Positions 12,001 to 15,000 of a stretch of DNA of 39,698 nucleotides are shown here, one piece after another; position 1 is the first letter of the stretch, and each line of letters begins with the position of its first letter. Position numbers: made by a program. The stretch lies in the IMG/VR virus record IMGVR_UViG_2522572021_000013; one strand, 5' to 3'. This stretch comes from a virus (taxonomy: Duplodnaviria > Heunggongvirae > Uroviricota > Caudoviricetes).

Positions 12001-15000
12001 ATCCGGATGTTAAAGGGCCGCTCAGGCAGATTCTCCAGAATCACCGACGCCAGGTACTGTGAGGTGGTCTTGCCGTTAATGGTGACATCCTTTTCCGTCA
12101 CCCAGTTACCGTTACGCTGCAACTGAATCAGCAGTCGGACAGAAGAGGGATTACGGTCGCCCTTTGAGGTGGTCTCCAACAGTGACTGCACCCCGAAGGT
12201 GACCCGCAGGCGGTCAATGTTCGCGGACGTAATGGTGCGCGTCACCGGCTTTGCCTTCGTCACTTCCACGCCCAGTGCGGTTTCAGCTCCGGAGGACTCA
12301 AAGCCTTCAGGTGGTGTCTGCTCCTGCTCCCCGGCGCGCCAGACCGCTGTCACACCATGTATCACAGGATTACCGTCCGTGTCCGTCAGCGGGGTTTTGT
12401 TCACCAGGATACTCTGCAACCCCTTCACCGGACCTTCAATCGGCCCTTCACCAATGGCGTCAATCACGCTCATCATCTGCGTGGACTTAAGATTGTCCTT
12501 TGCCTCTACCGGCGTGTGCGCCTTGCCGCCCCCTTTACCCACTCTGTCCCCCTCTCCTGTCTGATGTCTGAATCTGTTTATGCCAGAAAACAACAGGCAC
12601 CCCGGAGGGTGCCTGTGTCATGACGGAATAAAATTTCTGAAACTCTTCACATTTCCGGCAATTGCCTGTAGCCGCAATAATGACGCTGCATTACTTTTTT
12701 GATGCCTGAAAAATAACTCCATAACGTTAATCTTCATCGTTCTCTCCCGCAGCTCCGCTAACTCTGCGGGATTTTTTTATTTTCATCCCCGCCCGATAAC
12801 CACCACTTTCCCGTCTCCGCCCTCATCACGGGTGCTGATGTCCTGGGATATCCGTCGTGAACCAACCAGCATTTCACCGTAAGGCACCGGCATCGGGTTC
12901 CCCTGGGCAATCATGTTATCCAGCGAGGAAAAGTACGTGTTCTGTCTGCCGTTATCCGTGCTTTTGTACTCCGGTACTTTAGCCTTCGGGGCCAGCATCT
13001 GAGCCACACCACCCAGAATCATGCTGGCCCCCAGAGAAAACAGCATCGTGGTGGCAGAAAAACCACCGGCTGCCAGGGCTGAACCCCATAACGCCATTGA
13101 TGCCCCGGCCGTGAAGAACGACCCCACGATGGCTGCCGCCCCCAGCACAATCTGCAGTCCGCCCTTTCCGGCCCCGGCCAGTCGCGGCACAATGTGGATG
13201 AGCGTTCCCTCACCCAGCTGTTCGTGAAGACGGGCGTACACCGCCTCCGGTGCCGTGTCATCACCGGCAATACGTATCTGGTACCAGCCTTCGTTCATCT
13301 GACGGCGGAATCCCGGCATCTGCATCGACAGGGCACGGATGGCTTCCGCTGCCGTGTTCACATACAGGCTGAGGCGGCGGCCAAATCGTTGTAAATCCCC
13401 GTGAAGGCAGATACGTGCCAGTGGCGGTGACGCCAGGCTGAATGCGTTCGTCGTTGCCATTTTTCGGAATACCTCTCCCGTTTACTCAGTTGTTCAGGCA
13501 GATGGTGAAGCAGTTCACCGTTGCCGCAGTATATGGCGGCATGATTGGCCACCGATGCGCCAAAGCAGCACAGCAGGATATCGCCCGCCTGTGCAGAGGA
13601 CAGGGGCACCCGGTAAAAGCCCGTTGCCTCCATATTGTCCAGGTACAGGTTCTGACCGTTGCGCCACCACTCATCCTCACGGTGAAAATCCGGCATCTCA
13701 ATCCCCGCCAGATGGTATGCATCCCGGAACAGGGTGTAACAGTCCGTCACCCCGTGTTCAAAGCGCCGTCCGGTCAGGTGCGGAACGCAGCGGAATTTGT
13801 GAATGTCACCCCGGCTGACCAGCCACCAGGGCAGTGCGCTTTTTATCTGCAGCCGCCGGTCAGCCTCGCTCAGCCAGGGCAGACCACCGGGATGACTGTG
13901 AACCAGCGCCACAATCTCCCCCTGCATCTCTGCCCGCAGCCAGTCTTCCGGGGCAATACGAAAATATGCCTCAGGCTCTGCAGAGATATTCACACAAGGG
14001 ATATACCGCTCCCCCTCCGGCGTTCTCACCACGAAGCCGCACGACTCCGCAGGCACACACCGCCGGGTGTGTGCCAGAATCACTGATTCTGTCTGTGTCA
14101 TTGGATTTACTGCGAAAGTTTGTTAATGGAAAGGAAACCGCCAAAATTAGCCACCATGCCGCGCATCTCACACCCGCGCATGCACTTGCTGCATCTGTCC
14201 TTACGGATATCGGTGGTGGGGTTGTCGAACTCATCCGCCACCGCAGGACCGTTATACCCGCATTCATCTCCCCGGTAATCCCACATACAGGTGTTCGCCA
14301 GCATGATGCGACCGGGAAACAGCGCTCCGTCCGTCTCCGTCGGTGTTGCCAGCACAAACGAGGCTGTCATGGCCGTCAGCTCTGACATCTGCTCCACCAC
14401 CCAGCGGTCGCTCAGCTCCTGCTCCGGGTCGGCCTCCGGATTGCCTGCCACAAAGTTCACCGCATCCAGAAAACGCGCATACACCCGGCGGCGGACCACC
14501 GTGGCACCCACCAGGCTCTGCAGGTCCTCCGCCATTCCGGTGACAAGACCGAACAGATTGGACACCGTCAGCGACGGGCGGGCACTGCTGCCCCGGCCGT
14601 TCATCTCAAAGCCGCTGCCGTCAATCGGGTATGCCTCATACTTACGCCCCTGCCAGGTGACCGGCTCCCCTTTTTCATTCAGCTCATTGCAGAAAAAATA
14701 CCGCTCACCACCCTGTACCGTCAGGTCGATTTCCCAGAGTACCACCCGCGGTGACTGCTCTGACTTAACCGACTCGTTCAGGCTTTCTTCGTGAATATCC
14801 TGCATCAGTTCACCACCTGCTCTATCGTGCAACTGAAATCACTGTACCGGGCATTATCCGTGACACTCCACTCACGGCACACAACCCTCACCGTCCGGTT
14901 ATGTTTCGGCGGTCGCCACAAAAAGGCACGGTAACCACCATGCCACGATAAAAACTCTTCCAGCCAGCGCCGGGTTGACTCATCCGTCACCCGGAACACC

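What the first reader, a model, noticed from the sequence alone, without database searches (positions are those of the whole stretch)
12543..12782. 240-bp structured insert between tail genes I and J
In lambda, I and J overlap or abut; here they are separated by 240 bp containing two GC-rich hairpins (12595-12614; 12746-12770, the latter followed by T7 on the + strand, i.e. oriented against the tail operon) and a 39-codon ORF with a good RBS. This looks like a small inserted module: an antisense-terminating element, a small RNA, or a mini-moron.
Basis: seen in the sequence. Interest (0 to 1): 0.5.

Follow-up and report, generated by a model that had tools for sequence, protein, structure and literature searches.

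The report
Known prophage small RNA gene (PasB/EcOnc22)
The 240-bp gap between tail genes I and J holds an already described Hfq-dependent small RNA gene (EcOnc22, PasB family) read against the tail operon, next to an ordinary hairpin that precedes J in lambda too, so the finding is real but not new.

Summary
I (stop 12785-12783) and J (GTG 12542) lie on the minus strand, 240 bp apart, with two stable hairpins and a 39-codon ORF. The spacer is 240/240 identical to the I-J spacers of E. coli O157 Sakai prophages Sp15, Sp11 and Sp14. Tree et al. 2014 mapped the Hfq-bound sRNAs EcOnc22/24/23 there (northern ~85 nt, unstable without Hfq). It is homologous to the I-J spacer of EPEC prophage PP6, which encodes PasB (83 nt, antisense to the tail genes). 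Upstream lies a promoter block conserved across at least 10 divergent module types, including a near-consensus CRP-like site (12636-12651) centred near -60.5; CRP control is my inference. The other hairpin (12593-12616) works on the sense strand. Its variants keep pairing through G-U only on that strand, and lambda has an unrelated hairpin at the same place in its 60-bp I-J gap. The ORF is not conserved and is probably not a gene. Verdict: a noncoding "moron" that is already known. It is unannotated in the genome records examined and has no Rfam family. Related prophages carry tandem arrays of 2-4 such modules.

The parts
12704..12778 (+). PasB-family sRNA (identical to the EcOnc22/23/24 loci of O157 Sakai), about 75 nt, antisense to the tail operon. 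The 5' end is inferred; the 3' end is the U7 tract.
   Evidence: The spacer is 240/240 identical to Sakai Sp15/Sp11/Sp14. The Hfq-CRAC peak of EcOnc22 maps to 12703-12772 after the coordinate offset was calibrated with AgvB1. It aligns with EPEC PasB, annotated 5' end to U7.
12745..12778 (+). Rho-independent terminator of the sRNA: stem 12745-12752/12764-12771, 11-nt loop, U7 at 12772-12778, preceded by the U-rich stretch UCGUUCUCU. This is a typical Hfq-binding 3' module.
   Evidence: The PasB northern probe AATCCCGCAGTGATCGCGGAGCT matches this hairpin at 19 of 23 positions.
12715..12737 (+). Likely pairing (seed) region of the sRNA: AACUCCAU (12715-12722; AACUCCUU in most relatives, anti-Shine-Dalgarno-like) and AAUCUUCAU (12729-12737).
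   Evidence: These are the most conserved stretches of the sRNA body across divergent modules. Zhu et al. 2026 place the PasB seed just upstream of the terminator. The target pairing itself is inferred.
12692..12697 (+). Probable -10 hexamer TACTTT, 6 nt before the predicted +1 G at 12704.
   Evidence: A TAnnnT hexamer sits at this fixed position in 50 of 54 unique modules and one base further on in 2 more, and a G follows 6 nt later in nearly all modules printed. The position agrees with the annotated PasB 5' end.
12676..12681 (+). Second conserved box, AATAAT (TATAAT in EPEC). It is either an alternative -10, giving a TSS near 12688 and a 91-nt RNA, or of unknown role.
   Evidence: It is present at a fixed position in most module types but not all.
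12636..12651 (.). CRP-like operator TCTGA-aactct-TCACA (read on the minus strand: AAATGTGA-agagtt-TCAGA). Its centre at 12643.5 lies at -60.5 from the predicted +1.
   Evidence: The half-sites do not vary and only the central spacer varies in the 106 site occurrences found in 97 unique regions. Spacing to the -10 is fixed. It is the only TGTGA-N6-TCAnA in the 39.7-kb window. Binding by CRP is inferred.
12585..12616 (-). Sense-strand terminator-like hairpin (stem 12616-12607/12602-12593, loop UCCG) plus U-rich tail 12592-12585, about 45 nt before the J ribosome-binding site. It belongs to the native I-J junction, not to the insert.
   Evidence: Six stem variants keep pairing on the sense RNA (10, 9, 10, 10, 10, 10 of 10) better than on the antisense RNA (10, 9, 9, 8, 10, 9), and one shows a C-G to U-A double change. 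Unrelated hairpins occupy the same place in lambda and in a third spacer type.
12540..12557 (-). Translation start of J: Shine-Dalgarno-like GGAGAGGGGG (12557-12548) and GTG (12542-12540).
   Evidence: The N-terminus VGKGGGKAHTP matches the annotated J proteins.
12618..12737 (-). 39-codon ORF (MKINVMELFF...NFIPS). Probably not a gene.
   Evidence: Among 78 related spacers it is full length in about 45, the ATG is lost in 8 and a stop comes early in about 25. It is 22 codons in EPEC PP6. The middle is not conserved. There is no Pfam or PHROG match.
12783..13460 (-). Tail assembly gene I (boundary of the spacer).

Best explanation
The spacer is two things side by side.

(1) The two-thirds next to gene I (about 12620-12782) are a self-contained small-RNA gene inserted against the direction of the late tail operon. 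It has an activator-type promoter: a CRP-like site at 12636-12651 and a weak -10, TACTTT, at 12692-12697. It has a 75-nt body starting about 12704 and a Rho-independent terminator with U7 (12745-12778) that stops transcription 4 nt short of the stop codon of gene I. The RNA is EcOnc22, a member of the PasB family. It is made in the lysogen while the tail genes are silent. It binds Hfq and needs it for stability. It most likely acts in trans by pairing its single-stranded 5' body (AACUCCAU and AAUCUUCAU) with ribosome-binding or start-codon regions of host and prophage mRNAs. That makes it lysogenic conversion by an RNA, a noncoding moron.

(2) The third next to J (12543 to about 12620) is the native I-J junction. 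It is a sense-strand hairpin with a U-rich tail, followed by the J ribosome-binding site, as in lambda. Q-modified RNA polymerase would read through the hairpin in lytic growth, and stray transcription would stop there in the lysogen.

Shown: identity to the published loci, homology to PasB, strand, terminator, and conservation and geometry of the promoter block. Taken from the literature for identical or homologous sequence: transcript size, Hfq dependence and trans interactions. Inferred: exact 5' end, CRP control, seed and targets, and the role of the sense hairpin.
For: - Identity: the spacer is 240/240 identical to the I-J spacers of Sakai Sp15, Sp11 and Sp14.
- Published detection: Tree et al. 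2014, Table S2, lists EcOnc22 (Sp15), EcOnc24 (Sp11) and EcOnc23 (Sp14) as homologues on the '+' strand. EcOnc22 was seen by northern at ~85 nt and was destabilised in delta-hfq. All three peaks sit at the same place relative to the spacer.
- Mapping: the shift between their coordinates and NC_002695.2 is +137 to +146, calibrated with AgvB1 (Rfam hit, against Table S2). That puts the EcOnc22 peak at window 12703-12772, plus strand.
- PasB: annotated at NC_011601 1466343-1466261, minus strand, 83 nt. It lies in the 240-bp I-J spacer of PP6, antisense to the tail genes, with its U7 ending 6 nt from the I stop. The two spacers align throughout, and the sRNA bodies are 64/85 identical.
- Expression in EPEC: pasB read counts are 482 and 1082, against 4.8 for I and 15 for J. 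The log2 change in delta-hfq is -6.8 and -2.4. PasB has 37 RIL-seq interactions.
- Naming: phage NC_049945, which Zhu et al. 2026 use as their PasB phage, has the window-type spacer at 99.4% identity.
- Promoter geometry and the CRP-like site are conserved over at least 10 module types.
- PasB is higher in overnight LB than in the virulence-inducing medium, where the CRP-repressed Spot 42 is ~5-fold up.
- Sense hairpin.
Against: - No transcript data exist for this particular strain.
- There is no Rfam family, and no ncRNA feature is annotated in the records I examined.
- The predicted 75 nt is shorter than the ~85 nt northern estimate. A start near 12688 from the AATAAT box would give 91 nt, so the 5' end is not settled.
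- With that alternative start the CRP-like site would sit at -44.5, which fits neither standard CRP class.
- The expression difference between LB and the activating medium is confounded by growth phase.
- No target of EcOnc22 is known, and I found no convincing target within the window.
- The role of the sense hairpin is argued only from position and covariation.
Confidence: 0.85

Rival explanations
1. The payload is the 39-residue protein: a mini-moron translated from the late operon or from its own message, and the hairpins only bracket it.
For: - The ORF has an ATG and a nearby GGGAGAG.
- The frame stays open (39-41 codons) in two diverged spacer types, with a 6-nt, frame-preserving indel between them.
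- Four of the five differences in the first nine codons between the window and EPEC fall at third positions.
- One phage record annotates a hypothetical protein here (H6).
Against: - Among 78 related spacers the ATG is lost in 8 and a premature stop occurs in about 25. The ORF is 22 codons in EPEC PP6, the locus where PasB was defined.
- The middle of the peptide is not conserved. The conserved N- and C-terminal parts coincide with the sRNA seed region and the CRP-like block.
- Paralogous modules in arrays keep the promoter block and terminator but not the ORF.
- There is no Pfam or PHROG match.
- The Shine-Dalgarno sequence lies in the 3' arm of a hairpin.
Confidence: 0.05
2. The RNA works mainly in cis. 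Being fully complementary to the late transcript at the I-J junction, it pairs with tail mRNA, or its transcription collides with the late operon, to lower J expression or delay tail assembly, like OOP RNA of lambda or sar of P22.
For: - It is perfectly antisense to the end of the I message and the I-J spacer.
- It always has the same position and orientation in the 120 related loci, including arrays.
- That positional fidelity is not needed for a purely trans-acting RNA.
Against: - The RNA ends before the I coding sequence and starts about 150 nt upstream of the J ribosome-binding site, so it covers no translation signal of a real gene.
- It is expressed when the tail genes are silent.
- PasB has 37 Hfq-mediated trans interactions.
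- The fixed position can equally be explained by the spacer being a tolerated insertion site that recombines through the shared promoter block.
Confidence: 0.1
3. It is a type I toxin-antitoxin pair: the small ORF is the toxin and the antisense sRNA covering its start codon is the antitoxin.
For: The sRNA overlaps the ribosome-binding site and the first 11 codons of the ORF, which is the layout of several type I systems.
Against: - The peptide is polar and has no hydrophobic helix.
- The ORF is often broken while the sRNA is kept.
- No promoter for a separate ORF message was found.
- The sRNA has many trans partners.
Confidence: 0.01
4. There is no functional RNA. The hairpins are only terminators or insulators, or leftovers of recombination.
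For: Both hairpins look like terminators, and the spacer is a mosaic junction.
Against: - Northern detection, Hfq cross-linking and Hfq-dependent stability for the identical sequence in Sakai and for the homologue in EPEC.
- Strong conservation of a promoter block at fixed spacing.
Confidence: 0.03

Closest known systems
EcOnc22 / EcOnc23 / EcOnc24 (Tree et al. 2014, Mol Cell; E. coli O157:H7 Sakai prophages Sp15, Sp14, Sp11)
   Same: The spacer sequence is identical (240/240). Strand and position are the same. EcOnc22 is a ~85-nt RNA that cross-links to Hfq and is destabilised without Hfq.
   Different: Nothing at sequence level. The paper gives only peak coordinates in an older genome version, and neither its main text nor its supplement mentions the tail-gene context. 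Targets are listed as unknown.
PasB (Pearl Mizrahi et al. 2021, Sci Adv; Zhu, Shabalina & Storz 2026 preprint; EPEC E2348/69 prophage PP6)
   Same: Same locus (a 240-bp I-J spacer), same antisense orientation, same terminator stem and U7, same promoter block, and a similar length of 83 nt against about 75 nt.
   Different: The sRNA bodies are only 64/85 identical, with a 6-nt indel. The anti-Shine-Dalgarno-like motif is AACUCCUU in PasB and AACUCCAU here, so the target sets may differ. The 2021 table notes no EHEC homologue for PasB. The 2026 preprint does not mention EcOnc names, a promoter, CRP or PasB arrays.
AgvB and AsxR (Rfam RF02702, RF02703): prophage anti-sRNAs of EHEC
   Same: They are prophage-borne, short, Hfq-bound and expressed in the lysogen.
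   Different: They lie at the moron site downstream of PR', not in the tail operon. Their sequences are unrelated, and there is no Rfam hit in the spacer. They act as sponges of GcvB and FnrS, and nothing suggests that here.
Morons of lambdoid phages (Juhala et al. 2000)
   Same: Extra DNA between two genes of a late operon, with a terminator and an inferred promoter of its own, expressed from the prophage.
   Different: The product is an RNA, not a protein, and it is oriented against the operon.
Hairpin in the 60-bp I-J gap of phage lambda
   Same: A G+C-rich stem with a 4-nt loop and a U-rich tail on the sense strand, a few tens of bases before the J start.
   Different: The sequence is unrelated. 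I know of no assigned function in lambda.

Membership tests
PasB / EcOnc22 sRNA family (defined in the literature; no Rfam model) | Located in the spacer between tail genes I and J of a lambdoid prophage, antisense to them | tested here: met
PasB / EcOnc22 sRNA family (defined in the literature; no Rfam model) | Sequence homology to the published sRNAs | tested here: met
   240/240 identity to the EcOnc22/23/24 loci and 64/85 identity to PasB. The PasB probe matches at 19 of 23 positions.
PasB / EcOnc22 sRNA family (defined in the literature; no Rfam model) | [quoted passage not shown] | tested here: met
PasB / EcOnc22 sRNA family (defined in the literature; no Rfam model) | An 80-85-nt transcript whose stability depends on Hfq | not testable with these tools
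   Reported for the identical sequence in Sakai and for PasB. Not measured for the strain of this window.
Class I CRP-dependent promoter | 22-bp site matching TGTGA-N6-TCACA | tested here: met
   AAATGTGA-agagtt-TCAGA gives 9 of 10 core positions. The half-sites do not vary in the 106 occurrences found.
Class I CRP-dependent promoter | Site centred near -61.5 (or -71.5, -82.5, -92.5) from the transcription start | tested here: inconclusive
   The centre is at -60.5 from the predicted +1 G at 12704. The start is inferred from the PasB annotation, the CRAC peak edge and the conserved TAnnnT, not mapped. The alternative start gives -44.5.
Class I CRP-dependent promoter | Transcription depends on cAMP-CRP | not testable with these tools
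   Only indirect evidence: PasB is higher in overnight LB than in the activating medium, where Spot 42 is up.
Rho-independent terminator (sense hairpin 12593-12616) | G+C-rich stem-loop followed by a U-rich tract on the transcribed strand | tested here: met
   Covariation favours the sense strand. Termination activity was not tested.
Type I toxin-antitoxin system | A conserved small hydrophobic toxin ORF overlapped by an antisense RNA | tested here: not met
   The overlap exists, but the peptide is polar and the ORF is broken in about 40% of relatives.
Moron (protein-coding) | An inserted ORF with its own promoter and terminator | tested here: not met
   The insert and terminator are present and a promoter is inferred, but the conserved product is an RNA and the ORF is not conserved.
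Any Rfam family | Score at or above the gathering threshold | tested here: not met
   Nothing in the spacer at gathering threshold. The best E-value in a permissive scan was 1.1, which is chance level.

The most novel reading that the evidence does not exclude
The I-J junction of EHEC/EPEC lambdoid prophages is a cassette site for a family of Hfq sRNAs. All cassettes share one catabolite-controlled promoter (a CRP-like site at -60.5) and carry different anti-Shine-Dalgarno-like seeds. The cassettes are shuffled through the shared promoter block and occur as arrays of one to four, so each prophage delivers its own glucose-sensitive set of translational repressors to the host. EcOnc22-24 and PasB would be two members of this larger, so far undescribed system.
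Probability: 0.35. Interest if true: 0.5.

Novelty: already known. Interest (0 to 1): 0.25.

Why it matters
The element itself is not new. The check is still useful in four ways.
- It ties two separately named sets of sRNAs (EcOnc22/23/24 in EHEC and PasB in EPEC) to one locus type.
- It shows that genome records carry no annotation for this RNA. It is present in 811 of 5426 complete E. coli genomes, with a median of 4 copies in those that have it.
- It gives testable leads on the RNA's control (a CRP-like site) and mode of action (anti-Shine-Dalgarno-like seed).
- If the cassette-array reading holds, prophages of pathogenic E. coli would be rewiring host translation with a modular, nutrient-responsive RNA toolkit placed inside a structural operon.

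Tried and rejected
- Rfam: nothing in the spacer at gathering threshold or in a permissive scan.
- AgvB/AsxR were my first lead from memory. Rejected because they lie at the PR' moron site.
- Taking the coordinates of Tree et al. at face value would put EcOnc22 over the J-proximal hairpin on the plus strand. Rejected after calibration with AgvB1 showed a shift of +137 to +146 between genome versions. STnc100/EcOnc06 at 3.49 Mb is compatible with this shift.
- The sigma-70 consensus scan found no promoter on either strand. The promoter was inferred from conservation instead.
- A class II CRP geometry from the AATAAT box gives -44.5, so I do not favour it.
- The small ORF as a protein: no Pfam or PHROG hit, and it is not conserved.
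- RNAduplex of the sRNA body against the start regions of 39 ORFs in the window gave a best energy of -25.1 kcal/mol. Shuffled sRNAs gave -24.0 +/- 2.4, so there is no target signal (a first attempt timed out).
- A scan of one genome per species for a 23-nt piece of the spacer gave only a 460-bp contig labelled Parendozoicomonas, which says nothing about distribution.
- I did not use the large protein searches or structure prediction. No protein question justified them.
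Full report
OBSERVATION. The tail operon runs on the minus strand: H, M, L, K, I, then J. I stops at 12785-12783 and J starts with GTG at 12542-12540, behind GGAGAGGGGG. The gap is 240 bp, as reported. Both hairpins are real and stable. Hairpin 12593-12616 has a 10-bp stem; its region folds at -27 kcal/mol, z = -5.0. Hairpin 12745-12771 has an 8-bp stem and an 11-nt loop and is followed by T7 on the plus strand. A 91-nt plus-strand RNA ending there folds at z = -4.1. The 39-codon ORF is at 12737-12618 on the minus strand. The comparison with lambda needs a correction. Lambda I and J are 60 bp apart, and that gap has its own hairpin.

WHAT IT IS. The spacer is common. It occurs in 131 phage records, mostly Stx-converting phages, and in 811 of 5426 complete E. 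coli genomes, with a median of 4 places per genome that has it. It is 240/240 identical to the I-J spacers of O157 Sakai prophages Sp15, Sp11 and Sp14.

Tree et al. 2014 (PMC4104026, Table S2) list three homologous Hfq-bound RNAs in exactly these prophages: EcOnc22, EcOnc24 and EcOnc23. All are on the '+' strand, while the tail genes are on '-'. EcOnc22 was confirmed by northern at ~85 nt and was destabilised in delta-hfq. Their coordinates refer to an older genome version. I calibrated the shift with AgvB1: the Rfam hit is at 1941920-1941981 in NC_002695.2 against their peak at 1941783-1941835, which gives +137 to +146. The strand labels agree. With this shift the EcOnc22 peak falls at window 12703-12772 on the plus strand.

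Independently, PasB of EPEC E2348/69 (PMC8550237, Table S6) is annotated at 1466343-1466261, minus strand, 83 nt. That is inside the 240-bp I-J spacer of prophage PP6, antisense to the tail genes, with its U7 ending 6 nt from the I stop. The two spacers align along their whole length. The sRNA bodies are 64/85 identical. The PasB northern probe matches the window hairpin at 19 of 23 positions.

In EPEC RNA-seq, pasB has mean counts of 482 and 1082, against 4.8 and 15 for the flanking I and J genes. It drops by log2 6.8 and 2.4 without Hfq, and it has 37 RIL-seq interactions. The phage that Zhu et al. 2026 use as their PasB example, NC_049945, carries the window-type spacer at 99.4% identity. 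The plus-strand hairpin+T7 is therefore the terminator of a known, expressed, Hfq-dependent sRNA. There is no Rfam family for it, and no ncRNA is annotated in the records I looked at.

ANATOMY OF THE sRNA MODULE. A scan of viral contigs for the terminator returned 120 loci. In them the spacer is a mosaic. One arrangement recurs in at least 10 divergent module types, read on the sRNA strand:
- TCTGA-N6-TCACA, then 24 nt;
- a TATAAT-like box (present in most types, not all), then 10 nt;
- a TAnnnT hexamer (at that position in 50 of 54 unique modules, one base further on in 2 more), then 6 nt;
- a G, then a body of about 40-55 nt, a terminator hairpin and U6-8.

In the window these parts are 12636-12651, 12676-12681, 12692-12697 and G 12704, with the terminator at 12745-12778. 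The G coincides with the annotated PasB 5' end (one base inside it) and with the edge of the calibrated CRAC peak. I therefore place the sRNA at 12704-12778 (75 nt), against ~85 nt by northern. A start near 12688 from the AATAAT box (91 nt) is not excluded.

Read on the other strand, the upstream block is AAATGTGA-agagtt-TCAGA. That matches 9 of 10 core positions of the CRP consensus. The half-sites never vary and only the centre of the spacer varies. It is the only such site in the 39.7-kb window, where 0.3 would be expected by chance. Its centre is at -60.5 from the predicted start, which is class I geometry. PasB is higher in overnight LB than in the virulence-inducing medium, where the CRP-repressed Spot 42 is about 5-fold higher. 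That fits CRP control, but growth phase is a confounder. The papers I read do not mention CRP or a promoter for PasB. CRP control is my inference.

The best-conserved parts of the body are AACUCC(U/A)U and AAUCUUC(A/G)U. The first resembles the anti-Shine-Dalgarno sequence, and one paralogue carries ACCUCCUUA exactly. This suggests pairing with ribosome-binding sites, which is also an inference.

THE OTHER HAIRPIN. Hairpin 12593-12616 is followed by a U-rich tract only on the sense (minus) strand. Its six natural stem variants stay paired on the sense RNA through G-U pairs that would be C-A mismatches on the other strand. One variant shows a full C-G to U-A exchange. Two unrelated sequences put a hairpin plus U-rich tail at the same spot just before J: one in lambda and one in a third spacer type. 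I read it as part of the native I-J junction. It would be an internal late-operon terminator or RNA end that Q-modified polymerase passes. Relative to lambda, the insert is the sRNA module alone.

THE ORF. The ORF is full length in about 45 of 78 related spacers. It lacks its ATG in 8, stops early in about 25, and is only 22 codons in the PasB type locus. Its conserved ends overlie the sRNA seed region and the CRP-like block, and its middle drifts. It has no family match. It is most likely a by-product of the sequence constraints on the other strand.

HOW IT WORKS. Most likely this is a prophage-borne, trans-acting, Hfq-dependent sRNA made in the lysogen and possibly switched on by cAMP-CRP. 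It would repress or otherwise modulate host and prophage mRNAs by pairing near their translation starts. The terminator protects gene I from antisense read-through. A cis effect on the tail transcript is possible but secondary. The RNA covers no translation signal of a real gene, and it is expressed when the operon is off. I found no target signal within the window.

COMPARISON AND NOVELTY. The element is identical to EcOnc22/23/24 and is a diverged member of the PasB family, so it is already known. Three things may be new. First, the explicit link between the two names: the 2021 table notes no EHEC homologue for PasB, and the 2026 preprint never mentions EcOnc. Second, the shared CRP-like promoter. 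Third, the tandem arrays: 102 loci have one module, 7 have two, 2 have three and 9 have four, all on the same strand and all inside the I-J spacer.

These extras are modest. None rests on experiment, and the sample was collected with a terminator pattern, which biases it. Interest is low to moderate.

Noticed in passing
L035 700-1550 (also L062, L066, L067, L080, L110, L114, L117, L119; three modules in L030, L061; two in L009, L016, L037, L104): In some related prophages the I-J spacer holds tandem arrays of 2-4 sRNA modules with a period of about 220-230 bp. Each module has the same CRP-like promoter block and its own terminator, but a different body. The papers I read do not describe such arrays for PasB.
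   Followed up: partly
L030 about 147-233 (minus orientation as printed): One paralogous module encodes an sRNA containing ACCUCCUUA, identical to the anti-Shine-Dalgarno end of 16S rRNA as I recall it. That would be an unusually literal ribosome-binding-site mimic.
   Followed up: no
window 9064-12593 (minus strand): Gene J is split into two overlapping ORFs (12593-11574 and 11721-9064). The same split is annotated in VT1-Sakai as 'truncated by a mutation', whereas J is intact in phage Stx1_14040. This prophage probably cannot make a functional tail tip.
   Followed up: partly
window 36597-36783 (minus strand): Rfam hit to the prophage sRNA STnc100 (115 bits, gathering score 47). In Sakai Sp10 and Sp17, STnc100 sits back to back with AgvB.
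   Followed up: no
window 38116-38232 (plus strand): ALIL pseudoknot (120 bits), which I recall as the frameshift signal of IS3-family transposases. An insertion sequence probably lies near the end of the window.
   Followed up: no
window 12557-12576 (J leader, minus strand): Imperfect 7-nt repeats (CAGATT-CAGACAT-CAGACAG) lie just before the J ribosome-binding site. Related loci (L067, L080, L108) carry one to three extra copies, so the leader length varies.
   Followed up: no
L129 745-805 (lambda) and L012/L017 type spacers: Three unrelated sequences place a G+C-rich hairpin with a U-rich tail on the sense strand shortly before J. This is a conserved feature of the late operon for which I know no assigned function.
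   Followed up: partly
L128 (NZ_FWPT01000051.1, 460 bp): A 460-bp contig of a Parendozoicomonas haliclonae assembly carries E. coli prophage I-J spacer sequence that differs from the window at only a few positions. It is most likely contamination of that assembly.
   Followed up: no
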